From NCBI GenBank assembly GCA_963729605.1, contig CAVSNY010000002.1, positions 145,824 to 209,823 on the forward strand: DNA of 64,000 nucleotides, given 5' to 3'. This stretch comes from an uncultured Gammaproteobacteria bacterium (GTDB taxonomy: Bacteria > Pseudomonadota > Gammaproteobacteria > DRLM01). Positions 31,482 to 51,596 of the stretch are shown piece after piece. The notes beneath the pieces are model-generated. The model was given only the letters and a program-made list of their open reading frames with translations. It made no database searches and was not told the DNA's origin. Every line of letters begins with the position of its first letter. The first letter of the stretch is position 1. The position numbers were made by a program, and so were the translations under genes.

Positions 31482-31724
31482 GTGGCGGGCGCGGGCCCGG
31501 CGCGGACCTTGCGTCATGAGCAAACGCGGCGTCCTCCCCCGTGCGAAAAAAGTAGGCCTTTCTTTACGTGCGGCCCCGGCGTTTGCCCGAGGGCCACGGC
31601 ACATCGTCGCAAGGGCGATGGCCGCGGGTGGCTTGCTCGCGTGGGCGGCCATCGCCACGGGCGCGGCATTGACTCCCCGACGCGAGCAAGGTATACAGCG
31701 CGCTGCCCAATTGGAAGCCCGGCC

Positions 31725-35125: not shown

Positions 35126-35178
35126 GGCCGCGTCTCTCCACGCAACGAGTCAACTAACGGAACCACGAGGTAAAGATC

Positions 35179-35526
35179 ATGAGAAACGACGCAAACAACA
35201 TGGGTGATTATCAAACCAAGCAGACCTTCGAGACCTTCTCGTTTCTGCCGCAGTTTTCGCAACAGGACGTGTTTGCCCAAGTGGAATACATCATCGCCCA
35301 AGGCTGGAATCCGGGTATCGAACACGAGCATCCCAGTAGCGCCTTCAATCATTACTGGACGATGTGGAAGTTGCCTTTCTTCGGTGAGAAGGACCCCACG
35401 CGGGTATGGGCGGAGTTGGAAGCTTGCCGTCGCGCCTACCCCGACCACCACATTCGCCTGATCGGGTATGACAACTATGCCCAATCGCAGGGGATGCAGC
35501 TGGTGGTGTTCCGCGGCCGCAGCTGA
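35179..35526 (+). CDS. cbbS: RuBisCO small subunit
   Basis: 115 aa with FETFSFLP...GWNPGIEHE...YWTMWKLPFFG. Confidence 0.95.
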   Translation: MRNDANNMGDYQTKQTFETFSFLPQFSQQDVFAQVEYIIAQGWNPGIEHEHPSSAFNHYWTMWKLPFFGEKDPTRVWAELEACRRAYPDHHIRLIGYDNYAQSQGMQLVVFRGRS

Positions 35527-35604
35527 GTACGGCGCAGAGGGCGTGATGCCGGCATAAGTGCCGACGTCCGCAACGGAGACGATGCTCCATTAACTAGGGC
35601 GGAG

Positions 35605-37932: not shown

Positions 37933-37956
37933 CTGTAGTTAAGTGGACTGACGAAG

Positions 37957-39504
37957 GTGCTGGGTATGCAGAGCTTACGCCGCAAAAATACTCGCAACAT
38001 CTGCTGGTCGGCAGGTGCGCCGAGTGCGCGTGCGACGGTGGTTTCACCGGCGGCCGCACCTTCGTCTTATTTTGCCACGCCCAATTCTGATCGAGCGGCG
38101 CACCCCTTGACGCGTCACTCGGAAAACGAGCGTCTTCACGCTTACGAACGTTGCGTCAAGGGCGCCTTCGACGACATCGTGCCGACGCTGCGGGAAATCT
38201 CCGCGCTGCAACATGAGGCGGACTTCGAAGCCCGCGCGCAACGCATTGCCCAGGAACGTTTCGGCTGTGAATTTCCGCCGGAATTATTGCGCAGCGCCTG
38301 GGTGAAGGGCTTGGATATGCGCGCCTTGTACGCCTATATCGTCTTCGAGTCCGCCCAAGCGATGGCGGAAGATTTTTTCACCAATGACCCCTTGGCGGGT
38401 GCGTGCAGCGAGGCCTTCGAGAAGTTTCTTCAAGCCTGCGGTTTTCACGCCCTCTCCATCACGCCCTGCGCGGACGGGCGGTTGGCGCACGTCATCAGTT
38501 ACGTATTGCGTCTGCCTTACGGGGTGGTGCGGCGTAAATCCTCCGCCGGGGCGACATTCGATATCGAAGAGGCCACGGAAAAATGGATACAGACCGAGTT
38601 TAGCCGCTACCGCGAAGCCAAACCCAACAGCTCCGATGCCTCGACGCGCTATTTGAAAATGGTGGTCTATCATCACAGCAGCAGCGACCCTGGGCATGAA
38701 GGTTGCGCCGCGCACGGCAGCGACACGCGCAAGGCCGCGCAAGCCGGATTGGATCGCCTGTTGGCATTCCGCACCGCGATCGAAAACAGCTTCTGCTGCG
38801 GCGCGTCCATCGATTTGCTCTTGATCGGTTTGGATACCGACAATGACGAGATCCGCATTCATATCCCCGACGCCGCCGGCAATCTTAGCTTGGAGCGCGT
38901 CATCGATGTGCGGGAAGTCTACGCGGCCACCCGCGCCCTGAGTGCCACCGAGGCCGAAGCCACGATCGAACGCCTCGTGCGCGAACGCGGCCAGGGTGGT
39001 GTCGGTGAAACCGTGCCCGGCATGCGGCGCTTCATCACGCGTCTGCTCATCAACAACATCGCCCAGGTCGATTATGTGCGCGCCTATCACGGCGACCGAT
39101 ATGAAGACATCGGCCATAACGAACGTTTCATCGGCGTGGGCAAGGGTTTCGAGGAAGTGCAGCTGCGCAATCTCACCTACTTCGCCTATCTCAACACCGT
39201 CGAGGAAGGCGCCAGGGATTTGGACGTGGGCGTGAAAATATTCACGGCGTTGAATATCGCCCGCGGTCTGCCCATCCCCGTGGTGGTGCGTTTCGATTAC
39301 GACGGCAAGGTGCCGGGCGCGCGCGAACGCGCGGTGGCGCACTGCCAGCAAATCCGCGCCGCCGCCTATGCGCGCTACGAGAAGCTGGTGGAAGAAGGCT
39401 GGTTGCACTGCTTGCTGATGGTGCGTGATCGCGCGGAGACCCAAGGTTTGGAAATGGTCGCCTGCTCGGTCACCGACAAATACCGCGAACGGGGAGCGCA
39501 CTGA
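37957..39504 (+). CDS. csoSCA: carboxysomal carbonic anhydrase CsoSCA (CsoS3)
   Basis: 515 aa. It is collinear with Halothiobacillus CsoSCA as I recall it (ITPCADGRL; VYHHSSSDPGHEGCAAHGS; CCGASIDLLLIGLDTDNDEIRIHIPD). Confidence 0.9.
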   Translation: MLGMQSLRRKNTRNICWSAGAPSARATVVSPAAAPSSYFATPNSDRAAHPLTRHSENERLHAYERCVKGAFDDIVPTLREISALQHEADFEARAQRIAQERFGCEFPPELLRSAWVKGLDMRALYAYIVFESAQAMAEDFFTNDPLAGACSEAFEKFLQACGFHALSITPCADGRLAHVISYVLRLPYGVVRRKSSAGATFDIEEATEKWIQTEFSRYREAKPNSSDASTRYLKMVVYHHSSSDPGHEGCAAHGSDTRKAAQAGLDRLLAFRTAIENSFCCGASIDLLLIGLDTDNDEIRIHIPDAAGNLSLERVIDVREVYAATRALSATEAEATIERLVRERGQGGVGETVPGMRRFITRLLINNIAQVDYVRAYHGDRYEDIGHNERFIGVGKGFEEVQLRNLTYFAYLNTVEEGARDLDVGVKIFTALNIARGLPIPVVVRFDYDGKVPGARERAVAHCQQIRAAAYARYEKLVEEGWLHCLLMVRDRAETQGLEMVACSVTDKYRERGAH

Positions 39505-39752
39505 TGAGAATCTGTCAGGTTGAAAAGCCACTGGTGTCCACTAACCGCATCTCGGGTTTGGAACACAAGCTCTTGCAAGTGGTGAACGATGGCAAGACCA
39601 AATACGTGGCGGTGGACCCGGTGGGTTGCAAGCCTGGTGATTGGGTGATTTGCGTGGGCAGTTCCGCCGCGCGCGAGGCCGCGGGCAGCAAGGAGTATCC
39701 CAGCGATCTGACCATCGTCGGCATTATCGACTACTGGAACGAGGGCGTCTGA
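39504..39752 (+). CDS. csoS4A: carboxysome vertex pentamer CsoS4A (EutN/CcmL family)
   Basis: 82 aa beginning MRICQVEKPLVSTNRISGLEHKLLQVV. Its start overlaps the csoSCA stop by 1 nt (TGATG). Confidence 0.9.
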   Translation: MRICQVEKPLVSTNRISGLEHKLLQVVNDGKTKYVAVDPVGCKPGDWVICVGSSAAREAAGSKEYPSDLTIVGIIDYWNEGV

Positions 39753-39753
39753 G

Positions 39754-40023
39754 ATGGACATCCTGCAAGTGGTCAGTCCTTTGGTGTGTACCAGCAGGAT
39801 CCCCGGCCTGGACCGCGTGGGACTGCGCGTGCTCAAGGATCGGAACGGTCAGTTGCAGGTGGCCACCGATCCGGTGGGTTGTCATCCGGGCAACTGGGTG
39901 TTCACGGCGAGCGGGTCGGCGGCGCGTTGGGCGATGGGGGACTACGCGGTCCTGACTGATCTCACGATTGCCGGGATCATCGATCATTGGGAAGAAGAGC
40001 GGGTAAATGAAGCGGGTAAATGA
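39754..40023 (+). CDS. csoS4B: carboxysome vertex pentamer CsoS4B (EutN/CcmL family)
   Basis: 89 aa beginning MDILQVVSPLVCTSRIPGLDRVGLRVL. It is a paralog of CsoS4A and starts 1 nt after the csoS4A stop. Confidence 0.9.
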   Translation: MDILQVVSPLVCTSRIPGLDRVGLRVLKDRNGQLQVATDPVGCHPGNWVFTASGSAARWAMGDYAVLTDLTIAGIIDHWEEERVNEAGK

Positions 40024-40101
40024 AAAAGCGTAACTGGATATGAAGGTAGCAGCGGCGCGCTGTGTCATGAGTGTGATTGAACTTTAACAGGAGTAATGAA
40101 G

Positions 40102-40404
40102 ATGGCTAACGAAACATACGGTATTGCATTGGGCATGATCGAGACGCGCGGCTTGGTGCCGGCGATCGAAGCGGCGGACGCGATGACCAAGGCGGCGGAA
40201 GTGCGTCTGATTGCGCGCGAATTCGTCGGTGGTGGTTACGTGACCGTGCTGGTGCGCGGCGAGACGGGTGCGGTGAACGCGGCGGTACGCGCCGGTGCGG
40301 ACGCGTGCGAGCGCGTGGGTGACGGCCTGGTCGCCGCGCACATCATCGCCCGCCCGCACAAAGAAGTGGAGCCGATGCTGGCCCCGGCTGCCAACGTGAA
40401 GTAA
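40102..40404 (+). CDS. csoS1: carboxysome shell hexamer CsoS1 (BMC-H), copy 1
   Basis: MANETYGIALGMIETRGLVPAIEAADAMTKAAEVRL... is a canonical BMC domain. The ATG at 40102 has better spacing to the aggag than the ATG at 40096. Confidence 0.95.
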   Translation: MANETYGIALGMIETRGLVPAIEAADAMTKAAEVRLIAREFVGGGYVTVLVRGETGAVNAAVRAGADACERVGDGLVAAHIIARPHKEVEPMLAPAANVK

Positions 40405-40438
40405 ATGTTTTTAACTGGTGTTGAGACTGGAGACGACC

Positions 40439-40741
40439 ATGGCTAACGAAACATACGGTATTGCATTGGGCATGATCGAGACGCGCGGCCTGGTGCCGGC
40501 GATCGAAGCGGCGGACGCGATGACCAAGGCGGCGGAAGTGCGTCTGATTGCGCGCGAATTCGTCGGTGGTGGTTACGTGACCGTGCTGGTGCGCGGCGAG
40601 ACGGGTGCGGTGAACGCGGCGGTACGCGCCGGTGCGGACGCGTGCGAGCGCGTGGGTGACGGCCTGGTCGCCGCGCACATCATCGCCCGCCCGCACAAAG
40701 AAGTGGAGCCGATGCTGGCCCCGGCTGCCAACGTGAAGTAA
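40439..40741 (+). CDS. csoS1: carboxysome shell hexamer CsoS1 (BMC-H), copy 2
   Basis: The protein is identical to copy 1. The DNA differs at one synonymous position (40153 t vs 40490 c). Confidence 0.95.
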   Translation: MANETYGIALGMIETRGLVPAIEAADAMTKAAEVRLIAREFVGGGYVTVLVRGETGAVNAAVRAGADACERVGDGLVAAHIIARPHKEVEPMLAPAANVK

Positions 40742-40775
40742 ATGTTTTTAACTGGTGTTGAGACTGGAGACGACC

Positions 40776-41102
40776 ATGGCTAACGAAACATACGGTATTG
40801 CATTGGGCATGATCGAGACGCGCGGCCTGGTGCCGGCGATCGAAGCGGCGGACGCGATGACCAAGGCGGCGGAAGTGCGTCTGATCGCGCGCGAATTCGT
40901 CGGTGGCGGTTACGTGACCGTGCTGGTGCGCGGCGAGACGGGTGCGGTGAACGCGGCGGTACGTGCCGGCGCGGACGCGTGCGAGCGCGTGGGTGACGGC
41001 CTGGTCGCCGCGCACATCATCGCCCGCCCGCACAAAGAAGTGGAGCCGATTCTGGTGCCGCCCACCAGCGGCGCGAACGGCAACCGTCCGCAACGCAGCT
41101 GA
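40776..41102 (+). CDS. csoS1: carboxysome shell hexamer CsoS1 with a C-terminal extension (CsoS1B-like), copy 3
   Basis: The first ~89 aa are identical to copies 1 and 2, with four synonymous changes. The tail then diverges to ILVPPTSGANGNRPQRS. Confidence 0.95.
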   Translation: MANETYGIALGMIETRGLVPAIEAADAMTKAAEVRLIAREFVGGGYVTVLVRGETGAVNAAVRAGADACERVGDGLVAAHIIARPHKEVEPILVPPTSGANGNRPQRS

Positions 41103-41150
41103 TGCGCGCGCATAGCGGGCGTGCTTGAAGGCATGAGTTGAATCGGGGGC

Positions 41151-41630
41151 GTGACAGCGATGATAAACGCCAATGTCAATCCGCGGGTGTTGGGCTATTT
41201 GGGCCGCGCATTGAGTCATGAATTGTCTGCGGTGCAGCAGTACCTCACGCAATCGAAGTTGGCCGAGGCGTGGGGGCTGCTGGAAGCGGCCGGGCGCTTG
41301 CGCGATGAGGCGGCCGAGGAGATGAGGCATGCCGAACGCATCATCACACGGATGATCGCGCTCGGCGTGGCGCCCAGCGCCTCGCAACTGCGTCCCGCGC
41401 AATTGGGCGCCAATCTCGCCGAGTGTTTGCACAAGAATCATCGCGTCGAGGCGGAGGCCATCGCGCTCTACGAGGATGCGCTGCGTTATTGTCAGCGTAT
41501 CCAGGATCGCGACAACGGGGCCTTTTTCGAAGCGTTGTGGAACGAAGAACTCGCCCATGGCCGGGAAATGGCGCAATGGTTCGCGACGGTGGAGTCGAGT
41601 GCGGCCAGCGGCAGGCGGGCATTTTTCTAG
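41151..41630 (+). CDS. ferritin/bacterioferritin-like protein associated with the carboxysome operon
   Basis: It has two ExxH di-iron motifs (EEMRHAE, EELAHGR) in a four-helix-like sequence. It sits directly after csoS1, as in Halothiobacillus. The start is GTG 41151 or ATG 41160. Confidence 0.75.
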   Translation: MTAMINANVNPRVLGYLGRALSHELSAVQQYLTQSKLAEAWGLLEAAGRLRDEAAEEMRHAERIITRMIALGVAPSASQLRPAQLGANLAECLHKNHRVEAEAIALYEDALRYCQRIQDRDNGAFFEALWNEELAHGREMAQWFATVESSAASGRRAFF

Positions 41631-41641
41631 CGAGGTGCGCG

Positions 41642-41902
41642 ATGAGCGAAACATGGCAAGTGCGTAAACGGCCGGCGCGCCTGGAGGGGCGGGTCGAGTT
41701 CGCGGACTATACCGCGACGCGGGATTTTCTCGATCGCTTGGCGGAGTTGTCCGAGCGCGAGCAGAGCTATCCCAACCTCAGTTTCGGCAGGACGTACGTC
41801 AATATCACGCTCGACTCGCCGGAAGAAGATGATGAGGTGAGTGAGGCGACCTGGCGTATCGCGCGGCTCATCGATGAGCTCGTGGCGGGGACGGGGGGCT
41901 GA
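41642..41902 (+). CDS. pterin-4a-carbinolamine dehydratase-like RuBisCO assembly factor (acRAF)
   Basis: An 86-aa product from ATG 41642 (MSETWQVRKRPARLEGRVEFADYTATRDFLDRLAELSEREQSYPNLSFGRTYVNITL). The PCD-like fold signature and position match acRAF in alpha-carboxysome loci. Confidence 0.75.
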   Translation: MSETWQVRKRPARLEGRVEFADYTATRDFLDRLAELSEREQSYPNLSFGRTYVNITLDSPEEDDEVSEATWRIARLIDELVAGTGG

Positions 41903-41907
41903 GCATC

Positions 41908-42549
41908 ATGGCCGGTTCGTCACTGCTCATCGCCATGATGGGAAACAAAGGCGGAACCGGCAAGACCACACTGGCGGTCAATATGGCGGTGGGCCTGATG
42001 CGGCGGGCGCCGTCCGCGTTGCTGGATTTGGATCCGCAACGTTCCGCGTGGCAATGGTCGCGTATCGCCGAACGGGCCGCGCACGCGGCGCATGTCTACG
42101 AATGCCATGGCGATGTGGGCGAGGTCGTGGCGAACCTTAAAGAACGTTATCAGTACGTGGTACTGGATTGCCCGCCTTCGGTGCATGCGCGGGAAACGCG
42201 CGATGCGCTGCGTCTTTGCGATCACGCATTGGTGCCGGTGCAGCCTTCGCCGATGGACTTATGGGCTACCCTGAGCGTGGTGGAAGCGGTGAGTGCCGCG
42301 CAGCGCGAGCACCCTCGCCTCAAGGCGCGCATCGTGCTCAATCAATTGGAGGCGCAAACCGTATTGTCGCGCGATATCCGCGCGGTGATCGACGAGGTGG
42401 GTCTGGCCGTGCTGAGCGCTGACGTGAGGCGGCGCGCGATTTATCGCAATGCCATGGCGGAAGGCAAGACTGTGTTCGATATGGGTGGCGCCGGCCGCGA
42501 GGCGGCGATGGAAATAGAGCGTTTACTGACGGAGGTCATAGCAGCATGA
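41908..42549 (+). CDS. mcdA: ParA-type ATPase McdA (carboxysome positioning)
   Basis: 213 aa with the deviant Walker A GNKGGTGKTT. It sits in the carboxysome accessory operon followed by a small disordered partner. Confidence 0.8.
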   Translation: MAGSSLLIAMMGNKGGTGKTTLAVNMAVGLMRRAPSALLDLDPQRSAWQWSRIAERAAHAAHVYECHGDVGEVVANLKERYQYVVLDCPPSVHARETRDALRLCDHALVPVQPSPMDLWATLSVVEAVSAAQREHPRLKARIVLNQLEAQTVLSRDIRAVIDEVGLAVLSADVRRRAIYRNAMAEGKTVFDMGGAGREAAMEIERLLTEVIAA

Positions 42550-42800
42550 GCAAGAGCGATAAGACCAGCCAGAAATTACTGGACTCGATACGCAAGACCA
42601 AGGCGTCGGCCGACACCCCGATGAATGCATCGCCGGATGCCGCGCCTGTCTCTGCGCCGGCGCCTGTTTTGAATGCGGCTGCCAAACAACCACCCGCGGA
42701 ACAACGCTCCGCCGCGCAAGGCCAACAGCCACAGCCATCACAGCAACCTGCTGAGGAGCCGCGGCGCATCTTCAGCAGTCGGCGCGTATGGCCTGACTGA
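42546..42800 (+). CDS. mcdB: McdB-like disordered partner protein
   Basis: 84 aa of low-complexity sequence rich in A, P and Q, with a basic N-terminus and a C-terminal RRVWPD containing a Trp. It has a 4-nt ATGA overlap with mcdA. Confidence 0.65.
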   Translation: MSKSDKTSQKLLDSIRKTKASADTPMNASPDAAPVSAPAPVLNAAAKQPPAEQRSAAQGQQPQPSQQPAEEPRRIFSSRRVWPD

Positions 42801-44133: not shown

Positions 44134-44442
44134 ATGCATAGGCTGCATCCAGAGAAACAGATCACGGTGATCACCTCCGACGTGCTGGAGGATCGCCTCG
44201 TCAAGCTCATCAAGCAGCGCGGCGCACGGGGTTATACGGTGTTCCGTGCTTATGGCGCCGGCACCTCCGGCGAGCAGTCGGGCATGCTGGACGTCGACAC
44301 CAACATCGTTATGCACGTGATCGTTCCTTCGGCCAAATTGAGCACGCTGCTTGACGGTTTGGAAAACTTGGGGCGCAAGGGTCATCACTTGACGGTGACG
44401 GTCGCCGACGTGTCGGTGTTATGGCCGGAAAAGTTCGAGTAG
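44134..44442 (+). CDS. sbtB: P-II-like protein, SbtB-like
   Basis: 102 aa with a beta-alpha-beta pattern and a Gly-rich T-loop-like segment (YGAGTSGEQSG). It starts 24 nt downstream of sbtA. Confidence 0.7.
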   Translation: MHRLHPEKQITVITSDVLEDRLVKLIKQRGARGYTVFRAYGAGTSGEQSGMLDVDTNIVMHVIVPSAKLSTLLDGLENLGRKGHHLTVTVADVSVLWPEKFE

Positions 44443-44470: not shown

Positions 44471-45592
44471 ATGGCTTTGGTGGATATGCGCGACATGTTG
44501 CGCCATGCCTACGAGCATGGTTACGCCGTGGCCGCCTTTGAAATCGTGAGCCTCGACGTACTCGCGGCGGTGCTGGACGCGGCCGAGCGTTGCCGCGCTC
44601 CGGCGCTGATCATCGTCGGCGATGACGACGATGCCCCGTGTGACCTGGAGGTGTTGATGCCGGCGGCGGAAACCGCCGCGCGGCGCGCGTCGGTGCCGGT
44701 GGCCATTCAATACGCACCGGTGAATTCGCTCGATGACGTCTACCGGGCGATGGCATTGGGATGCAACGGCATCGCGATGTCACGCCGTCGCGAGACATTT
44801 CCCGAGGCGATCAAAAAGACCCGCGAAATCGTCGACTGGGCCCACGGCTGCGGTATGCCAGTGGAGGCGGGTTGGTTGTCCGCGCCGCCTATGCTTGCAG
44901 CGGACGAGGCGCATGCTGAAGAAGAGGAGGCGTGGCCTACGCCGAGCGAAGCGGCGGCCTTCGTGCAACGCGCGGGCGTGGATTTTTTTGCGCTCGACGA
45001 TCCGCGCAGCGTAAAGACCAAGATCGATTTCCCGCGTCTCAAATTGATCGGCGCCGCGGTGCGCACGCCGCTGGTGCTGTACGGCGCCGGCGCATTGAGC
45101 GAAGACCAAATCAGGCGGGCGATTTTCAAAGGCGTCGCCAAGATCAGCGTCGATCCGGCCACGCTGCAGGGCCGCGACACATCCTCGCGCACGTCCGCGG
45201 CCCGCGCGCGCAGAGCCGCCATGGGGGCCGAAGCGGAGCGGCACATGCGTTTGTACGGTAGCGCCGGCCGTGCCGCGGAAGTGCTGAGCCGCTGCGCAGC
45301 GTGGACGGTGGTGCAGCAGGTCTGGCTCTGCGGTGGCGATTCGGTCGATGAACGCGCGTTTGCGGGTTTGATGGACGAATGCCGGCGCCTCGTCGGCACC
45401 ACCCCCGGCGTGCGTGGCGTTTTCGCCGGCCGCGCCTCGGCCGAGCAGGAAAGATATCGCTATTGCATCGTGTTCCGGCTGTCGCATCCCGACGCCGTGA
45501 AACACGCGCACGACGCGCTGTCGACGGTGCGCCGCAGCTTCAGCGAACGTTGTCTCGCGGTGGATGTGCCGGCGCTGGAGATTGTGGCGTAG
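44471..45592 (+). CDS. class II (Zn) fructose/tagatose-bisphosphate aldolase-like protein lacking the metal-ligand histidines, with an extra C-terminal alpha+beta (Dabb-like?) domain
   Basis: The N-terminal ~245 aa align with GatY/CbbA-type aldolases (MLRHAYEHGYAVAAFEI; PLVLYGAGALSEDQIRRAIFKGVAKISVD). However, HLDH is QYAP, EAELG is EAGWL, GTAHG is DDPRS and VLHG is VLYG. The C-terminal ~125 aa is unrelated to aldolase. Confidence 0.7.
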   Translation: MALVDMRDMLRHAYEHGYAVAAFEIVSLDVLAAVLDAAERCRAPALIIVGDDDDAPCDLEVLMPAAETAARRASVPVAIQYAPVNSLDDVYRAMALGCNGIAMSRRRETFPEAIKKTREIVDWAHGCGMPVEAGWLSAPPMLAADEAHAEEEEAWPTPSEAAAFVQRAGVDFFALDDPRSVKTKIDFPRLKLIGAAVRTPLVLYGAGALSEDQIRRAIFKGVAKISVDPATLQGRDTSSRTSAARARRAAMGAEAERHMRLYGSAGRAAEVLSRCAAWTVVQQVWLCGGDSVDERAFAGLMDECRRLVGTTPGVRGVFAGRASAEQERYRYCIVFRLSHPDAVKHAHDALSTVRRSFSERCLAVDVPALEIVA

Positions 45593-45720: not shown

Positions 45721-47397
45721 ATGAACCAGCTCATCGCTTTAATGCCGGCGCTGCCGGTCATCTCGGCGTTGCTGACGCATCTGTTGGCGGCGAGACTCGG
45801 CCGTCGAGTGGCGAGGCTGAGCGTCGTCGCGGCAGGGATCACGTTCGCGCTCACCGTGGTGATGCTCGGCCTGACCGTGGCTGGGCATGGCCCGGGACAG
45901 ATTGCGGCTGCCGGGGATATCGGCGTTTTAATGAGCGACCCCTTGAGCGCGGTGATGGCGGTGCTGATCGCCGGCATCAGCTTCATCGTGCACCTCTATT
46001 CGGTGCGTTATATGGCCGAAGAAGCCGGCTACGCCCGATTCTTCGTGCTGTTGGATCTGATGACGGCGGCGCTGCTGGTCATGGTCGCGGCGGGAGATTT
46101 GATCACGCTGCTGGCGGCCTGGCACATCATCGGCGTCTTGCTCTACTTCCTGCTCGGCCAGGACACCCGCAGCCCGTCGGCCTATCGCTACGCCTTTTGG
46201 ACGTTTTTCACCTATCGCATCGGTGACCTCGCGCTGGTGCTGGCCGCTGCCTTGTTGTATTGGGCCTACGGGACTTGGTCCTTGCCGGAGATCTTCGCGG
46301 GCGTCGAGGCCGACCCCGCCGCCCGCAGCTTTTTCGGCGTGCCGGTGGTCGAAGCGGTCGGCGCGCTGTTGGCGCTGGCGGCCTTTGCGCGCTCGGCGCA
46401 GTTTTTACTGCATACGTGGCTGCCTTACACCATGGCGGGTCCCACCCCGGTGTCGGCGTTGATGCACGCCGGCATCGTCAATGCCGGCGGTTTCTTGATC
46501 AATCGCTTCGCGCCGATCTTCGTGCACAACAGCGACGTATTGCATGCGATCTTTCTGGTGGGCCTGGTCACGGCCGTCATCGGCTCGGTCCTGATGCTCA
46601 CCCAGAACGACATCAAGAAGGCACTGGGCTACTCCACGATGGGGCAGATGGGTTTCATGGTGATGGAGTGCGGACTCGGGGCGTTCTCCCTCGCCATCTT
46701 CCACCTGATCGCCCATGGGATGTTCAAAGGTACGCTGTTTCTCGGCGCCGGCGGCGTGATCGGCGAGGCGCGCAAGGACGACGGCGTGCCGAAGGATCAC
46801 CTCTACACCTTCGTGGTGGAGAAACGCCCGGCCCGGCGCCGGCAACCCTGGCTGTTGATGGCGGCGATCACCTTGGCGGTGCCGGTCGCGGTGCTCGTCG
46901 CGGCGCACTGGATCGTTTCCGACGATTTCTTCCAGAAGCAGGGCGCCATCGTGCTGCTCTTCTTCGGCTGGATGACCGGGGCGCAGCTGCTGTTCGCGAC
47001 CTACCGCATGCGCACCGAGAACGTCGGAAGACTGTTCACGCTGATCCTGTCGTCGTTCGTGGTCATCGTGCTGGGCTACGCCTTGATCAGTCACGCCTTC
47101 GATGTGTTCCTGTATCCAGATCCGGCGTTCCGTGCCCGCATCTACGAAGCCGCCAATGTGGACGTGTTCTGGTTCGATCTGCTCGTGGTGCTGGTCACCA
47201 CCGTGGTCGTGCTCGGTTGGCTGATCACCTACTACTCGGAACAAAGCGGCCGGCGGGACAAGGACGCCGGCCCAGTTTGGATGAGCTTCTACGCCCTGGT
47301 CTCCCGGGAGTTCTATCTCGCGGATGTCTACAGTTGGGCGACGCGCGTAATCCTCGCGGCCGCGGCGAAGGTCAACGTCTGGCTGAGGTGGGCGTGA
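45721..47397 (+). CDS. dabB: DabB, proton-conducting NuoL/MrpD-like membrane subunit of a DAB inorganic-carbon pump
   Basis: 558 aa with the PF00361-type motif HTWLPYTMAGPTPVSALMHAGIVNAGGFL. It is adjacent to a DUF2309 gene. Confidence 0.85.
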   Translation: MNQLIALMPALPVISALLTHLLAARLGRRVARLSVVAAGITFALTVVMLGLTVAGHGPGQIAAAGDIGVLMSDPLSAVMAVLIAGISFIVHLYSVRYMAEEAGYARFFVLLDLMTAALLVMVAAGDLITLLAAWHIIGVLLYFLLGQDTRSPSAYRYAFWTFFTYRIGDLALVLAAALLYWAYGTWSLPEIFAGVEADPAARSFFGVPVVEAVGALLALAAFARSAQFLLHTWLPYTMAGPTPVSALMHAGIVNAGGFLINRFAPIFVHNSDVLHAIFLVGLVTAVIGSVLMLTQNDIKKALGYSTMGQMGFMVMECGLGAFSLAIFHLIAHGMFKGTLFLGAGGVIGEARKDDGVPKDHLYTFVVEKRPARRRQPWLLMAAITLAVPVAVLVAAHWIVSDDFFQKQGAIVLLFFGWMTGAQLLFATYRMRTENVGRLFTLILSSFVVIVLGYALISHAFDVFLYPDPAFRARIYEAANVDVFWFDLLVVLVTTVVVLGWLITYYSEQSGRRDKDAGPVWMSFYALVSREFYLADVYSWATRVILAAAAKVNVWLRWA

Positions 47398-47398
47398 C

Positions 47399-48157
47399 AT
47401 GTCCTCGATGATGTGGCTGTTGTCGGCTTTCTTTCTGCCCCTATTTCCACTCAGCATGGGGTTCAACGCCCTGTTTGCACGGCTCCGCCACCCGCTGCTG
47501 CGGACGGCGATGCTGCTGATATGGCCCCAGATCGGGGTGGTGGCGCTTTCCCTGGTGACCACACCGATACCCGGATGGGTCCTGGCGCTGGCGGTGACGA
47601 CCTCGATACTGTATGGCGTTCGGGCCCTGGCTCTCCGCGAATTGGGCCTGTGGACCAGCTTTCTCGCGACCTCCAGCTGGGCCCTGCTTTGGATATCGGC
47701 CTATGACGGTGCCGACGCCTCGACGTTGCACCTCTACGCCGCGGGTTTCAGTGTGCCGCTGGTGCTGTTGGCGCTGCTGACCGGTGGCTTGGAACGCCGC
47801 TTCGGCGCGGCGTATACGGGGCTCTATGGCGGTCTCGCCCAGGTGCTTCCCCGCTTTTCCGGCGTGTTGGTGTTCGTGGTGCTGGCGGTAATCGCCACGC
47901 CGGTCTTCCCGGCGTTTTTCGCGATGCTGTCGACGATCGTGACCGCGGTGCCAGCCGCCCCCGCGGTCGCCGCCGGCGTCGCCGTGAGCTGGCTGGTGTG
48001 GAGCTGGGCCGGGGCGCGCCTGTTGCAGGGCATGATCGTCGGGCCTGGGTGTGACTGTGAGGTGCGGGACCTGAGCCGCGCCGCCACTTGGGGATACGCC
48101 TCGGTGCTGGTGCTGCTCGCGGTAGCCGGCCTCTCGTGGATGGGGGGACTGTCATGA
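47399..48157 (+). CDS. truncated antiporter-like (NuoM/N C-terminal-like) membrane protein encoded between dabB and dabA
   Basis: 252 aa and polytopic. The segment GGLAQVLPRFSGVLVFVVLAVIATPVFPAFFAML resembles the late TM region of Proton_antipo_M proteins. It starts 1 nt after the dabB stop and overlaps the dabA start by 4 nt. Confidence 0.6.
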   Translation: MSSMMWLLSAFFLPLFPLSMGFNALFARLRHPLLRTAMLLIWPQIGVVALSLVTTPIPGWVLALAVTTSILYGVRALALRELGLWTSFLATSSWALLWISAYDGADASTLHLYAAGFSVPLVLLALLTGGLERRFGAAYTGLYGGLAQVLPRFSGVLVFVVLAVIATPVFPAFFAMLSTIVTAVPAAPAVAAGVAVSWLVWSWAGARLLQGMIVGPGCDCEVRDLSRAATWGYASVLVLLAVAGLSWMGGLS

Positions 48158-51100
48158 GCTTGCCGCTGGGCCAAAAACTCGGCATTCGCACCATGATTTA
48201 TGTGGCCGGGGAGCCGGTGCCGTTCTTCTGGCCCATGCGCTCGTTCATCCATCACAATCCCTTGCATGGCCTCGAGCGTCACCCGTTTTACAGCGCCGTG
48301 CGGACCGGCGAGCGTCTGTTCCATGGGCGGGGCTATCTGCCGCGGCGCCTGTACCAGCGTTATCTCGGTCAGGGCAAGATAGACCGGGAGGCCCTCGCCG
48401 GGGAGCTTGCCGCGTTCCTCGGTTCGCGGGAGGTGCCCGGCCTGGATCTTGAGCGCTGGCTGATGACGCTCCTGACCGAAACACCTTTATCGGTGTGTGT
48501 GGCCACGACGCTTGCCGGCGCCGCCGACATACGAGCCGCCTTCGACAACAGGCCGCCGGGCCCCGCATCGGCGATCCCCCGAGAGGTGCTCGCGTCGCGG
48601 CTGGCGGGGGAGCTGCTGGGCGATCGGCCGGTGTACGAAGCGGTCGACGCCTTGTACGGCACGGAGATTGGCGCCACCCTGGATGAACTGGTGGTCAAGA
48701 GCTGTCTCGATTTCTTCGACGAAGGGCAGTCCTCCTGGGCCATGCCGCAGCGCGAGCGGGGCTTCTTCGCCGCCTGGCGCGAGGTGGCGCAACGCAACGC
48801 CCGGCTGTTTCTGCGCGGACTCCATATCAACCAAATACTGAGCGTGGACGAAAGCCCAGAAGGGGTGATCGCCTATGTCATGGAGAACCTGCAGATCCCC
48901 CGGGATCGTTGGATCGGTTATTTCACCCGGGAGCTCGCCCGGCTGCACGGCTGGGCCGGCTTCATCCGCTGGCGTTCCAGCGCCAAGCACTACCATTGGA
49001 CCCAGCGTTATCCGGGCGATCTCGTCGACTACATGGCGGTGCGCCTGACCCTGGCCCTGGCGCTGCTGCGCGAGGTGGGCGAGCGGCAGATTCCCTGCAC
49101 GGCCGCTGCAATCGAAGAGGCCGTGCACGGCCGGCTCGAGGAGATTTATCTGCGCCACGAATTCCATGGCGGCGGCATCGTGCCCGCCCTGGCGCACCGG
49201 GTCGAAGACGCCTTGTCGAGGGGCTCGGAACGTCACCTGTCGAAGGTCTTCGCCGAGTATGTCGAGAAGAAACGCGGCTGCGAAGCGGAACAGCAGGCGG
49301 TACGTTTACGCGACCTGGCGCTGCAGGTCGGTGAGATGGAGGCGGTCACGCAGCTCGCCGCAAATGAGTTTGCATGCCTGCTCGACCTGCTGAGGGAATT
49401 CGAAAAGTGCGAAGGCCCGATCTGGCTGAGGGCCTCGGAGGCACGGGCCATCGAGCAGTTTCTGGGTGGGGCACATGTGCAGGCGCCGCCGCAGCGGACC
49501 AAACGCCCTTTCGTCCAGGCGCTGTTCTGTATCGATACACGCTCCGAGCGCATTCGGCGACACTTGGAAGGCATCGGGGATTACCAGACCTTCGGCATCG
49601 CCGGCTTCTTCGGGGTGCCGGTGAGTTTCATGGAGATGGGCAAAGGCAGCGAGACCCACCTGTGTCCGGTATTGCTGACGCCCAAGAACCTGGTCCTGGA
49701 AATGACGGCGGGCAGTCCGCGTGACGAGGATGCGCTCACCTTCCTGGAAAAGGCCATGCACGAGCTGAAGGAGTCCGTGCTGACGCCGTTCGTGACCGTG
49801 GAGGCCATCGGTCTCTTGTTCGGCTTCGACATGGTCGGCAAGACCGTCGCGCCGGCCTCGTATAACCGCTGGCGCCGGCGTATTCATGCCAGCAAACCGC
49901 CGACCCGGCTGCTGTTGGACAAGCTTACCCGCGAACAGGCGGATTCCATCGTGCGCACGGTGCAGCGGGCGGTGATCGTCAAGGCCCTCGAGCAGGAAAT
50001 CCGCCTGCGGCCGGAGCGCATCACCGACGAACTGGTGCGGGAACTCCGCGAGGTCGCGCTGGGCCACGACGAGGGCTGCCCCAAACTCCTCGAGGCATTG
50101 GACGGCGACGCGTCCCGGGCGCAGGCGTTCATCGACCGCCTGCGGGGGCCGTACCGCATCAATCCCTCCTTTGCCCAGCTGCAACTGGAGCGGCTCGGGC
50201 GCATCGGCTTCTCCCTCGATGAACAAGCCCATTTTGTCGCGCAAGCCTTGCGGGCGATTGGACTCACCGAAGGGTTTTCCCGTTTCGTGCTGCTGGCGGG
50301 CCATGGCAGCCGCTCGGAGAACAATCCCTATGAGTCGGCGCTGGACTGCGGCGCGTGCGGCGGCAATCATGGCCTGGTCAGCGCCCGGGTCTTGGCGCAA
50401 ATGGCGAACAATGCCGGAGTGCGTCAGCGGCTGCATGAGATGGGTATCGACATCGCTGCGGATGCCTGGTTTCTTCCGGCGCTGCACAACACCACCACCG
50501 ACGAAGTGAAACTTTTCGATCTGGACCTGCTGCCGTCCTCCCACTTGGTGTATTTGGATCGGCTGCGCGGCGGCCTGACGGCGGCGTCGCGACTGTGCGC
50601 GCAGGAGCGCGTGCCCAGCTTGGCCATCGAAGGGGATCGGGTGGACAATCCGGCTGCGGCCTACCGCGCCGCGCAGCGCAACGCCATGGACTGGTCGCAG
50701 GTGCGTCCGGAGTGGGGACTGTCCGGCAACGCCTACTTCGTCATCGCGACGCGGGGCCTCACCCAGGGCATGTCTCTGGAGGGGCGGGCCTTTCTCCATT
50801 CCTATGACTACCGTATCGATGAGCGGCGGCGGCTGCTGGAAACCATCTTGTCCGGCCCGCTGGTCGTGGGTCAGTGGATCAACCTGGAGCACTATTTCTC
50901 CACCGTCGACAACGAGCGCTTCGGCAGCGGCAGCAAGGTGTACCACAACGTGGCCGGTCGCTTCGGCGTGATGACCGGCAACCTCAGCGACCTGCGTACC
51001 GGCCTGCCGTCTCAGACCGTGCTGGACAACGGCCTGCCGTATCATCAGCCGATCAGGCTGATCACCGTGATCGAGGCCCCGTTCGAGCATGCCCGCGCCG

Positions 51101-51267
51101 CGATCGAGGCGGTGGCGCCGGTCAAGAACCTGGTGCGCAACGGCTGGGTACGATTGATGGTGGTCGATCCAGAGGCGGCAGCGGTGTTTGTTTATGACGA
51201 GGGGGATTGGCGCCGCCGTTCCCTCGTCGACGCGACTGGAACGGCATCTCTGGAGGAGTCCCACTGA
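48154..51267 (+). CDS. dabA: DabA (DUF2309/YbcC family), beta-CA-like subunit of a DAB pump
   Basis: 1037 aa from ATG 48154 (MSLPLGQKLGIRTMIYVAGEPVPFFWPMRSFIHHNPLHGLE). The putative Zn site is C459 and D461 in FCIDTRSE, and H717 and C732 in GHGS...LDCGACGG, with the same C-x-D and H-x14-C spacing I recall for H. neapolitanus DabA2. Confidence 0.9.
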   Translation: MSLPLGQKLGIRTMIYVAGEPVPFFWPMRSFIHHNPLHGLERHPFYSAVRTGERLFHGRGYLPRRLYQRYLGQGKIDREALAGELAAFLGSREVPGLDLERWLMTLLTETPLSVCVATTLAGAADIRAAFDNRPPGPASAIPREVLASRLAGELLGDRPVYEAVDALYGTEIGATLDELVVKSCLDFFDEGQSSWAMPQRERGFFAAWREVAQRNARLFLRGLHINQILSVDESPEGVIAYVMENLQIPRDRWIGYFTRELARLHGWAGFIRWRSSAKHYHWTQRYPGDLVDYMAVRLTLALALLREVGERQIPCTAAAIEEAVHGRLEEIYLRHEFHGGGIVPALAHRVEDALSRGSERHLSKVFAEYVEKKRGCEAEQQAVRLRDLALQVGEMEAVTQLAANEFACLLDLLREFEKCEGPIWLRASEARAIEQFLGGAHVQAPPQRTKRPFVQALFCIDTRSERIRRHLEGIGDYQTFGIAGFFGVPVSFMEMGKGSETHLCPVLLTPKNLVLEMTAGSPRDEDALTFLEKAMHELKESVLTPFVTVEAIGLLFGFDMVGKTVAPASYNRWRRRIHASKPPTRLLLDKLTREQADSIVRTVQRAVIVKALEQEIRLRPERITDELVRELREVALGHDEGCPKLLEALDGDASRAQAFIDRLRGPYRINPSFAQLQLERLGRIGFSLDEQAHFVAQALRAIGLTEGFSRFVLLAGHGSRSENNPYESALDCGACGGNHGLVSARVLAQMANNAGVRQRLHEMGIDIAADAWFLPALHNTTTDEVKLFDLDLLPSSHLVYLDRLRGGLTAASRLCAQERVPSLAIEGDRVDNPAAAYRAAQRNAMDWSQVRPEWGLSGNAYFVIATRGLTQGMSLEGRAFLHSYDYRIDERRRLLETILSGPLVVGQWINLEHYFSTVDNERFGSGSKVYHNVAGRFGVMTGNLSDLRTGLPSQTVLDNGLPYHQPIRLITVIEAPFEHARAAIEAVAPVKNLVRNGWVRLMVVDPEAAAVFVYDEGDWRRRSLVDATGTASLEESH

Positions 51268-51269
51268 TC

Positions 51270-51596
51270 ATGAAAAATCTCAATTTAAGCCCTCTCAAGA
51301 AACTGGAAATCATCCTGGACGGTGAGCATCAGGCGTTTGTCACCGACATCCTCGACCGGGCAGGGGTCAAGGGCTACACCATCATCAACAATCTGTCCGG
51401 CAAGGGGCGCCATGGCTTCCACGAAGGCCATCTCATGTTCAACGAGGACGATGTGTTGATCATGATCATCGCCGCCGTGCCCGAGCACCTCGTGAATCCG
51501 ATCCTCGAGGGGCTCTCGCCCTTCTACAACGAACACTCAGGCGTGGTGTTCATTTCCGATATTCAGGTGACCCGCTTAGTGAAATTCGGCGGCTAG
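51270..51596 (+). CDS. P-II-like protein downstream of dabA
   Basis: 108 aa from ATG 51270 (MKNLNLSPLKKLEIILDGEHQAFVTDILDRAGVKGYTIINNLSGKGRHG...). It has a P-II-like secondary-structure pattern with a T-loop-like GKGRHGFHEG. Confidence 0.7.
   Translation: MKNLNLSPLKKLEIILDGEHQAFVTDILDRAGVKGYTIINNLSGKGRHGFHEGHLMFNEDDVLIMIIAAVPEHLVNPILEGLSPFYNEHSGVVFISDIQVTRLVKFGG

What the first reader, a model, noticed from the sequence alone, without database searches (positions are those of the whole stretch)
44471..45592. Catalytically dead class II aldolase-like protein with an extra C-terminal domain, tightly linked to sbtA-sbtB
The first ~245 aa align end to end with Zn-dependent class II ketose-bisphosphate aldolases (GatY/KbaY/CbbA type). 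Every position I remember as catalytic or metal-binding is substituted:
- HLDH is IQYAP (Q80 at 44708..44710).
- EAELG is EAGWL.
- GTAHG is DDPRS.
- VLHGASG is VLYGAGA.

A further ~125 aa follows, which may be a Dabb-like alpha+beta barrel (..GVRGVFAGRASAEQERYRYCIVFRLSHPDAVKHAHDA..). The gene starts 28 nt after sbtB and lies upstream of the DAB genes.

A TIM barrel that keeps its sugar-bisphosphate pocket but cannot catalyse is a plausible ligand sensor for FBP, SBP or RuBP, coupling Calvin-cycle status to bicarbonate uptake. I know of no description of such a component in CCM loci.
Basis: partly seen in the sequence, partly recalled or inferred. Interest (0 to 1): 0.78.

Follow-up and report, generated by a model that had tools for sequence, protein, structure and literature searches.

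The report
Dead aldolase-like gene in carboxysome operon
This gene encodes a sugar-splitting enzyme look-alike that has lost every catalytic residue yet is still kept by selection at the end of a CO2-concentrating (carboxysome and bicarbonate-transporter) operon. It belongs to a large, uncharacterised protein family attached to Rubisco operons, and that family has lost its enzyme chemistry many times.

Summary
ORF 44471..45592 (+, 373 aa) is a class II aldolase TIM barrel (Pfam PF01116, E=1.8e-36; Foldseek hits to YdjI, SqiA and Thermus FBA) fused to a C-terminal DABB domain (Foldseek hits to olivetolic acid cyclase, SP1 and At3g17210). The catalytic Asp, all three His metal ligands and the Glu are substituted or deleted. 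The gene starts 28 nt after sbtB.

The interpretation needs correcting in three ways.
- The phosphate-binding motifs are also lost and vary within the clade, so a retained sugar-bisphosphate pocket is not supported.
- The protein is a derived member of a large aldolase–Dabb family. That family sits at the 3' end of Rubisco operons (cbbLS-cbbQO-U124-ALD, form IC operons, α-carboxysome operons) and was annotated "cbbA" in Acidithiobacillus ferrooxidans in 2010.
- Catalytic death is common in the family. Of 58 full-length 50%-identity representatives, 50 have lost at least 2 of 5 key residues, while three family-specific cysteines persist.

The window clade (about 8 sequences, always sbtA-sbtB-ALD) arose independently and also lost the Dabb motifs. 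It is nevertheless under purifying selection (dN/dS about 0.2).

My best reading is a non-catalytic structural or regulatory pseudoenzyme of the CCM operon. Its partner is unknown.

The parts
44471..45592 (+). Aldolase-like/Dabb pseudoenzyme ORF (373 aa)
   Evidence: dN/dS 0.16-0.28 against orthologues.
44471..45256 (+). Degenerate class II aldolase TIM barrel (residues 1-262)
   Evidence: PF01116 E=1.8e-36. Foldseek hits to YdjI, SqiA and FBA.
45257..45592 (+). Family-specific linker helix (GSAGRAAEVLSRC..W) plus DABB domain (residues 263-373). The Dabb His and HPxH..FA..FRP motifs are lost.
44708..44719 (+). Q80-Y-A82-P83 replaces H-x-D-H (catalytic Asp and first His ligand lost)
44864..44878 (+). 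E132-A-G-W-L replaces E-x-E-L-G (second Glu lost, 2-residue deletion). W135 and L136 are invariant in the clade.
44996..45010 (+). D176-D-P-R-S replaces S-I-G-T-x-H-G (second His ligand and phosphate-binding Gly deleted)
45074..45094 (+). V-L-Y204-G-A-G-A replaces V-L-H-G-G-S-G (third His ligand and phosphate-binding Ser lost)
45140..45157 (+). K-I-S226-V-D-P229 replaces K-I-N-x-D-T (substrate hydroxyl and phosphate contacts lost)
44762..44764 (+). Cys98, a family-invariant cysteine (Phe or Met in canonical aldolases)
44849..44851 (+). Cys127, a family-invariant cysteine (Val or Leu in canonical aldolases)
45293..45295 (+). Cys275, a family-invariant cysteine in the linker helix
43087..44109 (+). 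sbtA (Sbt_1 family bicarbonate transporter)
   Evidence: PF05982 E=3.8e-115.
44134..44442 (+). sbtB (P-II-like), immediately upstream of the ORF
   Evidence: PF00543 E=4.4e-13.
33713..42800 (+). α-carboxysome operon upstream. Genes: cbbL 33713-35125, cbbS 35179-35526, csoS2 35605-37932, csoSCA 37957-39504, csoS4A/B 39504-40023, three csoS1 genes 40096-41102, bfr-like 41151-41630, pterin-4a-like 41642-41902, McdA-like 41908-42549, McdB-like 42546-42800. cbbR lies at 32532-33515 (-).
45721..51596 (+). DAB cluster downstream: DabB 45721-47397, 252-aa membrane protein 47399-48157, DabA 48154-51267, P-II-like 51270-51596
52109..54418 (+). SulP-family transporter. In sister genomes it lies upstream of sbtA.

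Best explanation
The gene is a non-catalytic (pseudoenzyme) descendant of the aldolase–Dabb family that terminates Rubisco and carboxysome operons ('CbbA-Dabb').

Shown:
- It has a class II aldolase barrel plus a DABB fold.
- The metal ligands, the catalytic Asp and Glu and the phosphate-binding motifs are all lost.
- It shares the family-specific signature: C98-N99, C127, GSAGRAAEV, C275, W278, PGVR.
- It sits at the end of the CbbR-flanked α-carboxysome operon directly after sbtA-sbtB, with no terminator in between.
- It is under purifying selection.

Inferred:
- It is co-transcribed with the carboxysome and SbtAB genes.
- It acts through its fold, as an oligomeric structural or regulatory partner of another CCM or Calvin-cycle protein. 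Candidates are SbtB/SbtA, Rubisco or shell-associated proteins, or an active aldolase paralogue.
- It does not act by cleaving or sensing a sugar bisphosphate.

Because the wider family sheds its catalytic residues repeatedly while staying in Rubisco operons, the function under selection in the family is probably not aldolase chemistry at all.
For: - Homology and fold.
- Loss of all catalytic and phosphate-binding positions.
- Family membership and signature residues.
- Family context: of the 80 loci returned by the scan of GTDB species-representative genomes, most are cbbR<>cbbL-cbbS-cbbQ-cbbO-U124-ALD. Others are form IC cbbLS-(U124)-ALD or cso...McdA-cbbQ-cbbO-ALD.
- A. ferrooxidans cbb1 = cso genes...cbbQ1-cbbO1-cbbA, with Pfam01116 + Pfam07876, co-transcribed by RT-PCR (PMC2942843).
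- Recurrent catalytic loss. Independent dead lineages are L046/L075, L065/L071, L048, P0130 and P0124. Of 58 full-length 50%-identity representatives, 50 lost at least 2 of 5 key residues, yet C98 is kept in 49/58 and C127 in 52/58. C275 was one of the two criteria (C275 + PGV) used to select these representatives.
- Dead members also sit in carboxysome or Rubisco loci.
- Selection: dN/dS is 0.16-0.28 for this gene, versus about 0.10 for sbtA and about 0.08 for sbtB. This includes unsaturated pairs (window-L090: dS 0.13, ω 0.18). Both domains are constrained. Intact relatives mostly have ω 0.02-0.10, up to 0.19.
- The nearest relatives outside the clade are intact gammaproteobacterial 'Type Q/H' members, so the loss is independent.
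- Synteny: ALD is the terminal operon gene, before TM_HPP(-) or purE, in sister genomes.
Against: - No partner or phenotype is known, so the protein-binding role is inference only.
- The clade is small (about 8 sequences from one uncultured gammaproteobacterial lineage). It evolves 2-4 times faster than intact relatives and than its neighbours: 53-61% identity versus 73-88%.
- It has also lost the Dabb motifs, which are the best-conserved part of most other dead members.
- One sister lineage carries a frameshift.
- These points fit a protein of reduced importance.
- Clade-invariant residues at the old active site (E132, W135, L136, D176, P178) leave room for a new small-molecule site.
Confidence: 0.55

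Rival explanations
1. First reader's model. The dead barrel keeps a sugar-bisphosphate pocket and senses FBP, SBP or RuBP, passing Calvin-cycle status to SbtB/SbtA (and DAB).
For: The TIM barrel is retained. sbtB adjacency is conserved in 8 of 8 clade members. Another dead member (Sulfuricella/Sulfurimicrobium, L065/L071) also lies in an operon with sbtA-sbtB.
Against: All recognised phosphate and hydroxyl contacts (HG, HGGSG, KINxDT) are deleted or substituted, and they differ between clade members. The beta2 loop is poly-acidic (GDDDDA), which is unfavourable for phosphates. Most family members, dead ones included, have no sbtAB nearby. DAB linkage exists only in the window/L090 lineage.
Confidence: 0.1
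2. A gene in decay. It is a redundant copy of the Rubisco-operon aldolase that lost its partners (cbbQ, cbbO, U124) and is drifting towards loss, with no present function.
For: It is the fastest-evolving gene of the operon. Both domains have lost their conserved motifs. There is a frameshift in L003/L004/L013. No cbbQ, cbbO or U124 is found in the window or in clade loci.
Against: The full-length ORF is kept across dS>1.5 in 7 lineages with ω of about 0.2 in both domains, and ω of 0-0.16 in the first 50 codons. About 170 residues are invariant in the clade. The two halves of the frameshifted copy are otherwise intact, so the frameshift is recent or an assembly error.
Confidence: 0.12
3. Neo-functionalised binding site or enzyme. 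The remodelled barrel mouth (E132, W135, L136, D176, P178, Y/H204, K224) binds a new ligand or performs metal-independent chemistry.
For: These replaced positions are invariant within the clade and differ from at least 80% of the family.
Against: There is no recognisable catalytic constellation. Y204 varies (Y or H), and positions 205-208 and 226-229 vary. The loop at 140-150 has low confidence. Constraint is relaxed relative to intact members.
Confidence: 0.1
4. Non-catalytic subunit of a hetero-oligomer with an active class II aldolase, following the GatZ/KbaZ-GatY/KbaY logic. It would tune Calvin-cycle FBP/SBP aldolase when the CCM operon is induced.
For: Class II aldolases are obligate dimers or tetramers (established knowledge). 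The N-terminal 50 residues and the core helices are the most conserved parts, with ω of 0-0.16. Genomes can hold two family paralogues, for example L054 and L063 in one MAG.
Against: No intact paralogue was seen in the window or recovered from the four clade MAGs among the 80 best loci. MAGs are incomplete, so this is weak evidence. GatZ/KbaZ belong to a different family, so this is an analogy only.
Confidence: 0.08

Closest known systems
'CbbA' of the Acidithiobacillus ferrooxidans carboxysome operon cbb1 (ACK80290.1; Pfam01116 + Pfam07876), and the same family in A. sulfuriphilus (L066) and Ferrovum (L067)
   Same: It has the same two-domain architecture and the same family signature (C98-N99, C127, GSAGRAAEV, C275, PGVR). 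It occupies the same position as the last gene of an α-carboxysome operon after bfr-like, pterin-4a-like, McdA and McdB genes.
   Different: The Acidithiobacillus-type proteins keep D82, H83, E, H180 and H208 and follow cbbQ-cbbO. The window protein has lost all of these residues, has lost the Dabb His/HPxH motifs, and follows sbtA-sbtB with no cbbQ or cbbO.
Class IIb metal-dependent ketose-(bis)phosphate aldolases: YdjI (6ofu), SqiA (8q57/8q59), AgaY/KbaY (1gvf), Thermus FBA (1rv8)
   Same: The (beta/alpha)8 fold aligns end to end at 23-28% identity.
   Different: The window protein has no metal ligands, no catalytic Asp or Glu and no phosphate site, and it carries an extra DABB domain. No NCBIfam aldolase model comes near its cutoff (best 121.7 bits versus 383).
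DABB (dimeric alpha+beta barrel) proteins: olivetolic acid cyclase, Populus SP1, At3g17210/HS1
   Same: The C-terminal domain has the same ferredoxin-like beta-alpha-beta-beta-alpha-beta fold.
   Different: Identity is 15-20%. Pfam Dabb scores below its threshold (14.1 bits versus 25). The His of beta1 and the HPxH motif that the rest of the aldolase–Dabb family keeps are absent.
Enzyme-derived scaffolds and non-catalytic partners (from memory): the gamma-carbonic-anhydrase-like domain of CcmM in beta-carboxysomes, and GatZ/KbaZ partners of tagatose-bisphosphate aldolase
   Same: An enzyme fold is kept for a non-catalytic role in the same pathway or operon.
   Different: These are unrelated families. 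No scaffold or partner role has been shown for the protein studied here.

Membership tests
Class II (metal-dependent) fructose/tagatose-bisphosphate aldolase, PF01116 | Sequence and fold homology to the (beta/alpha)8 class II aldolase | tested here: met
   Pfam E=1.8e-36 with full profile coverage. PDB phmmer E=3e-25. Foldseek E~1e-22.
Class II (metal-dependent) fructose/tagatose-bisphosphate aldolase, PF01116 | Three His ligands of the catalytic divalent metal (HxDH, GTxHG, HGGSG motifs) | tested here: not met
   The three positions are Pro83, a deleted residue (D176-DPRS) and Tyr204.
Class II (metal-dependent) fructose/tagatose-bisphosphate aldolase, PF01116 | Catalytic Asp before the first His, and Glu of ExELG | tested here: not met
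   Asp is replaced by Ala82. The second Glu is lost in a 2-residue deletion (EAGWL).
Class II (metal-dependent) fructose/tagatose-bisphosphate aldolase, PF01116 | DHAP-phosphate and hydroxyl contacts (Gly after the second His, Ser of HGGSG, Asn and Thr of KINxDT) | tested here: not met
   The positions are deleted, Gly207, Ser226 and Pro229, and they vary among clade members. The roles of these residues are taken from memory of the E. coli FbaA, AgaY and H. pylori FBA structures.
Class II (metal-dependent) fructose/tagatose-bisphosphate aldolase, PF01116 | Aldolase activity | not testable with these tools
   This needs an enzyme assay.
Rubisco/carboxysome-operon aldolase–Dabb family ('CbbA-Dabb') | PF01116 barrel fused to a C-terminal DABB domain through the GSAGRAAEV..C..W linker | tested here: met
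   Alignments A1 and A2, invariant columns, and domain folds.
Rubisco/carboxysome-operon aldolase–Dabb family ('CbbA-Dabb') | Family-specific cysteines C98, C127 and C275 | tested here: met
   All three are present. They are 99-100% conserved in 184 family sequences.
Rubisco/carboxysome-operon aldolase–Dabb family ('CbbA-Dabb') | Location at the 3' end of a CbbR-associated Rubisco or carboxysome operon | tested here: met
   The window has cbbR(-), cbbLS, cso genes, McdAB, sbtAB, then ALD. The same order occurs in L001, L003, L011 and L094.
Rubisco/carboxysome-operon aldolase–Dabb family ('CbbA-Dabb') | Adjacency to the activase genes cbbQ/cbbO (or cbbX) and the small U124 protein | tested here: not met
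   There is no cbbQ, cbbO or U124 hit in the window or in clade loci (tblastn; HMM).
Rubisco/carboxysome-operon aldolase–Dabb family ('CbbA-Dabb') | Conserved Dabb motifs (W.PVEH...IPGVR...HPxH..FA..FRP) | tested here: not met
   Only PGVR is kept. VEH is VQQ, and HPxH..FA..FRP is deleted or replaced.
DABB / stress-responsive A/B barrel, PF07876 | Ferredoxin-like beta-alpha-beta-beta-alpha-beta DABB fold | tested here: met
   AF2 pLDDT 83.6. Foldseek hits to OAC, SP1 and At3g17210, E~1e-6, TM about 0.7.
DABB / stress-responsive A/B barrel, PF07876 | Pfam gathering score | tested here: not met
   14.1 bits versus 25 (E=0.076) on the window sequence. Homologues score 37-51 bits.
SbtB (P-II-like) effector or target protein | Physical interaction with SbtB or SbtA | not testable with these tools
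   Only gene adjacency is known (28 nt; 8 of 8 clade loci).

The most novel reading that the evidence does not exclude
The aldolase–Dabb family as a whole would be a widespread, uncharacterised Rubisco-associated factor. Its selected function would reside in the invariant Cys98/Cys127/Cys275 site and the Dabb domain, for example a redox- or metabolite-responsive regulator or repair factor working with Rubisco and its activases, rather than in aldolase catalysis. The window clade would be a further-derived form recruited as an accessory of the SbtA/SbtB bicarbonate uptake system in α-carboxysome operons.
Probability: 0.2. Interest if true: 0.75.

Novelty: new variant of a known kind. Interest (0 to 1): 0.55.

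Why it matters
Rubisco and carboxysome operons are intensively mined for accessory factors (activases, chaperones, positioning systems, DIC pumps) and are being transplanted into crops and industrial hosts.

This analysis shows that a gene routinely annotated "class II fructose-bisphosphate aldolase" at the end of these operons belongs to a distinct two-domain family. That family has repeatedly lost its catalytic machinery while remaining under selection and in place. It is therefore probably not there as a Calvin-cycle aldolase.

The window protein is an extreme case, dead in both domains and wedged between SbtAB and DAB. It is a convenient handle for testing what the non-catalytic function is. 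It also warns against counting these genes as aldolases in metabolic reconstructions.

Tried and rejected
- **Literature.** Full-text search failed every time, as did look-ups by DOI or a guessed PMC id. Only PMC2942843 and PMC4660213 (no mention of aldolase or cbbA) could be read. I therefore could not check whether dead aldolase–Dabb proteins have been described.
- **Metagenome scan.** A scan with the clade profile found no new clade member beyond L099, which equals L096.
- **Profile of dead representatives.** A profile built from 17 dead representatives returned only mainstream intact members.
- **U124 search.** An HMM search for U124 in the window and in clade and cso loci was negative.
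- **NCBIfam.** No model reaches its cutoff for the protein, and there is nothing for the C-terminal domain.
- **Promoter and terminator scan.** It gave no promoter-like sites and no terminator-like site in the gaps flanking the gene.
- **Pseudogene hypothesis.** Rejected for the window gene on dN/dS and ORF retention.
- **Shared origin with other dead lineages (L046/L075, P0130).** Rejected, because the nearest relatives are intact Type Q/H members.
- **pI comparison.** It showed nothing distinctive.
Full report
**1. The observation**

ORF 44471..45592 (+) encodes a 373-aa protein.

Aldolase domain:
- Pfam F_bP_aldolase (PF01116) matches residues 4-267 over the entire profile, with E=1.8e-36 and 126.6 bits.
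- The closest solved sequences are E. coli YdjI (6ofu), sulfofructose-phosphate aldolase SqiA (8q57) and Thermus FBA (1rv8).
- An AlphaFold2 model built on a 120-sequence alignment is confident (pLDDT 84.5, pTM 0.86).
- Foldseek against the PDB returns only class II aldolases at the top (E~1e-22, TM normalised to target 0.82-0.88).

- H-x-D-H is Q80-Y-A82-P83.
- E-x-E-L-G is E132-A-G-W-L with two residues deleted.
- S-I-G-T-x-H-G is D176-D-P-R-S with four to five residues deleted.
- V-L-H-G-G-S-G is V-L-Y204-G-A-G-A.
- Coordinates were checked by translation.

C-terminal domain:
- In the model, residues 281-367 form a beta-alpha-beta-beta-alpha-beta unit.
- Modelled alone (pLDDT 83.6), this unit hits DABB proteins first: olivetolic acid cyclase, Populus SP1 and At3g17210.
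- Pfam Dabb is only marginal on the window sequence (E=0.076) but clear on full-length homologues (E=1.8e-13).

Gene spacing:
- The gene starts 28 nt after sbtB, behind a GAGAGG sequence, with no terminator-like site in between.

The only correction is that the extra domain is about 105 aa, not about 125 aa.

**2. What family it belongs to**

A search of 5.8 billion proteins gave 686 relatives. These fall into two layers.

The near clade:
- It comprises P0001-P0007, 54-95% identical and 373-405 aa long.
- All members share the degenerate motifs.

The wider family:
- Everything else is about 40% identical and 390-430 aa long, and carries PF01116 + PF07876 (Dabb).
- It mostly keeps (H/Q)LDHG, GELG, GT(V)(H/Q)G, HGGSG and KINxxT.

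The whole family shares features that canonical aldolases lack:
- Cys98-Asn99 (LGCNG), Cys127 (AHxCG), the linker GSAGRAAEV...Cys275..Trp278, and PGVR in the Dabb domain.
- All are 97-100% conserved in 184 sequences.

**3. Genomic context of the family**

In the 80 loci returned by the scan of GTDB species-representative genomes, mapped with tblastn, the family gene sits at the 3' end of Rubisco operons.
- Most often the order is cbbR<>cbbL-cbbS-cbbQ-cbbO-U124-ALD, where U124 is a conserved 124-aa protein with no Pfam or NCBIfam hit.
- It also follows form-IC-like cbbLS(-U124), for example in Nitrosomonas.
- In α-carboxysome operons it follows cso...McdA-cbbQ-cbbO (Acidithiobacillus sulfuriphilus L066, Ferrovum L067).
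- Metagenomic contigs show the same picture.

This is the gene that Esparza et al. (2010) called cbbA at the end of the A. ferrooxidans carboxysome operon cbb1 (PMC2942843).
- It has Pfam01116 + Pfam07876 and was shown by RT-PCR to be co-transcribed with the carboxysome genes.
- The same genome has a separate, plain cbbA in the Calvin-cycle operon cbb3.

The parent family is therefore known by annotation, though I found no functional study of it.

**4. The window clade**

All eight distinct clade sequences lie directly after sbtA-sbtB, with gaps of 27-51 nt. These are the window, L090-93, L010, L011, L001/2/12, L003/4/13, L094 and L095/96/99.
- In the longer contigs this is at the end of cso-bfr-pterin4a-McdA-McdB(-SulP).
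- Downstream genes differ: DabB-TM-DabA-PII only in the window/L090 lineage, TM_HPP(-) in L001/L095, and purE-purK in L003.
- The window is otherwise syntenic with L001 (TM_HPP, lipid A acyltransferase, MetH). The DAB cluster therefore looks like an insertion.
- No cbbQ, cbbO or U124 is present.
- A metagenome scan found no further members, so the clade is rare and confined to one uncultured gammaproteobacterial lineage.

In an NJ tree rooted with YdjI, SqiA and FBA, the clade is a long branch inside the aldolase–Dabb family. Its nearest BLAST relatives are intact gammaproteobacterial members, not other dead lineages.

**5. Is it a pseudogene?**

No. Nei-Gojobori dN/dS compares as follows:

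| Gene | dN/dS |
|---|---|
| Aldolase-like gene | 0.16-0.28 |
| sbtA | about 0.10 |
| sbtB | about 0.08 |

- The range for the aldolase-like gene includes unsaturated pairs: window-L090 (dS 0.13, ω 0.18), L001-L095 (0.22) and L094-L011 (0.16).
- Both domains are constrained (TIM 0.15-0.27, Dabb 0.14-0.29). The first 50 codons are the most constrained (0-0.16).
- About 170 residues are invariant across the clade.
- Intact relatives mostly have ω of 0.02-0.10. Other dead lineages have 0.16-0.30.
- Constraint is therefore relaxed about 2-4 fold but is clearly present.
- The split gene in L003/L004/L013 is a single frameshift near codon 107, with both halves otherwise conserved. It is either a recent event or an assembly error.

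**6. Does it keep the sugar-bisphosphate pocket?**

The sequence says no. The positions that bind the DHAP phosphate and hydroxyls in solved class II aldolases are the Gly after the second His, the Gly and Ser of HGGSG, and the Asn and Thr of KINxDT. I take these roles from memory of the E. coli FbaA, AgaY and H. pylori FBA structures.
- In the window protein they are deleted or replaced: YGAGA and KISVDP.
- They differ among clade members: YDATS, YGAAS or HGAVG, and KIGVNV, KIRVNV or KIHVNI.
- The beta2 loop is GDDDDA.
- Some replaced residues at the former active site are invariant within the clade (E132, W135, L136, D176, P178). The site has therefore been remodelled rather than left to drift freely, but not in a way that resembles a phosphate-binding site.

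**7. Catalytic death is a family habit**

Among the loci already fetched, several independent dead or half-dead lineages appear:
- L046/L075/L059: D82N, second-His loop deleted, H208Q. They lie at the end of a cso locus after a BMC-T-like gene and a NUDIX gene, followed by purE.
- Sulfuricella/Sulfurimicrobium L065/L071: D82Y, H83Q, H180N. The order is cbbO-SulP-sbtA-sbtB-cbbQ-ALD.
- L048, L063 and L081.

About half of the otherwise intact members carry a coupled H80Q / E→V,I / H180Q change ("Type Q").

An exhaustive profile search of 1.84 billion 50%-identity representatives listed 58 full-length two-domain representatives.
- Only 8 have the canonical D, H, E, H, H set.
- 50 have lost at least two of the five, and 28 have lost all five.
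- This count over-weights fast-evolving lineages, because intact members collapse into few clusters. It still shows many separate dead lineages.
- In these proteins the barrel diverges strongly, whereas the Dabb domain stays highly conserved (W.PVEHLIIYN...IPGVR...YRYCWLVRF.H..VI.SYR.HP.H..FA..LFRP...SIDY).
- The cysteines are also kept: C98 in 49/58 and C127 in 52/58. C275 was one of the two selection criteria.

Contexts of three dead representatives:
- P0130 lies at the end of a cso locus.
- P0124 lies after cbbL-cbbS-cbbX-like AAA and a 105-aa protein, next to a cbbLSQO operon.
- P0132 lies near a LysR gene without Rubisco within 9 kb.

The window clade is unusual even here, because it has also lost the Dabb motifs (VEH→VQQ; HPxH..FA..FRP gone).

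**8. Explanation**

The best-supported reading is that this is a pseudoenzyme. It is a non-catalytic descendant of the Rubisco/carboxysome-operon aldolase–Dabb family, co-expressed with the carboxysome and SbtAB, and retained for a function of its fold.

The pattern across the family is a conserved operon position, conserved cysteines and Dabb domain, and dispensable catalytic residues. This argues that aldolase chemistry is not what selection maintains in this family.

What the non-catalytic function is remains inferred. Candidate modes are:
- binding to SbtB or SbtA (adjacency only);
- binding to Rubisco or carboxysome components (family context);
- hetero-oligomerisation with an active aldolase (precedent in logic only).

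Rivals are a sugar-bisphosphate sensor (disfavoured by the lost phosphate site), a decaying relic (disfavoured by ω of about 0.2 over dS>1.5), and a remodelled ligand site (possible, untested).

**9. Novelty**

The architecture and its presence in a carboxysome operon have been on record since 2010 as "cbbA". The following do not appear in the two papers I could read: the complete loss of catalytic and phosphate-binding residues in this clade, its fixed position after sbtB, and the family-wide recurrence of catalytic loss with conserved cysteines. The literature search tool failed throughout, so prior description cannot be excluded. I rate this a new variant of a known kind, of moderate interest.

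Noticed in passing
window 44762-44764, 44849-44851, 45293-45295 (Cys98, Cys127, Cys275): Three cysteines are 99-100% conserved across 184 aldolase–Dabb family members, including the catalytically dead ones. Canonical class II aldolases have Phe/Met and Val/Leu at the first two positions. All three lie in alpha-to-beta loops or the linker on the N-terminal face of the barrel, which suggests a possible metal or redox site.
   Followed up: partly
L005 7577-7951 (and 43 other loci): 'U124' is a conserved 124-aa protein that always lies between cbbO and the aldolase–Dabb gene in form IAq Rubisco operons. It has no Pfam or NCBIfam hit. It is absent from the window and from carboxysome loci.
   Followed up: partly
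family-wide (e.g. L005 8001-9257 versus L017 7070-8215): Roughly half of the otherwise intact family carries coupled substitutions: H80Q, first Glu of ExELG changed to Val/Ile, and the second His ligand changed to Gln ('Type Q'). These members occupy the same operon context as members with canonical ligands.
   Followed up: partly
window 45721-51596: The DAB cluster has three genes plus a P-II gene: DabB, an extra 252-aa membrane protein (47399-48157; no Pfam hit, weak NuoM C-terminal similarity), DabA (probable start at 48154) and a P-II-like gene (51270-51596). The same layout occurs in L090-L092.
   Followed up: partly
window 52109-54418: The SulP-family transporter has a C-terminal region of about 370 aa with no STAS domain or any other Pfam domain. 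This is conserved in sister genomes, where the gene lies upstream of sbtA.
   Followed up: partly
window 40096-41102: There are three tandem csoS1 genes that are 97-100% identical at the protein level.
   Followed up: no
L003 9651-10804; L004; L013: The orthologue in two MAGs (GCA_947259805.1, GCA_945787555.1) is split by one frameshift near codon 107. Both halves are otherwise conserved.
   Followed up: partly
window 31482-32345: A 287-aa BMC-domain protein (possibly CsoS1D-like) lies upstream of the divergently oriented cbbR (32532-33515, -), outside the main cso operon.
   Followed up: no
L065 1099-9260 (Sulfuricella MAG): The order is unusual: cbbO-SulP-sbtA-sbtB-cbbQ-ALD. DIC transporter genes are inserted between the two activase genes, and the ALD copy has D82Y, H83Q and H180N with an intact Dabb domain.
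   Followed up: partly
window 7595-9910 (-): A nitrite/sulfite-reductase-like protein is fused to a C-terminal TusA domain.
   Followed up: no
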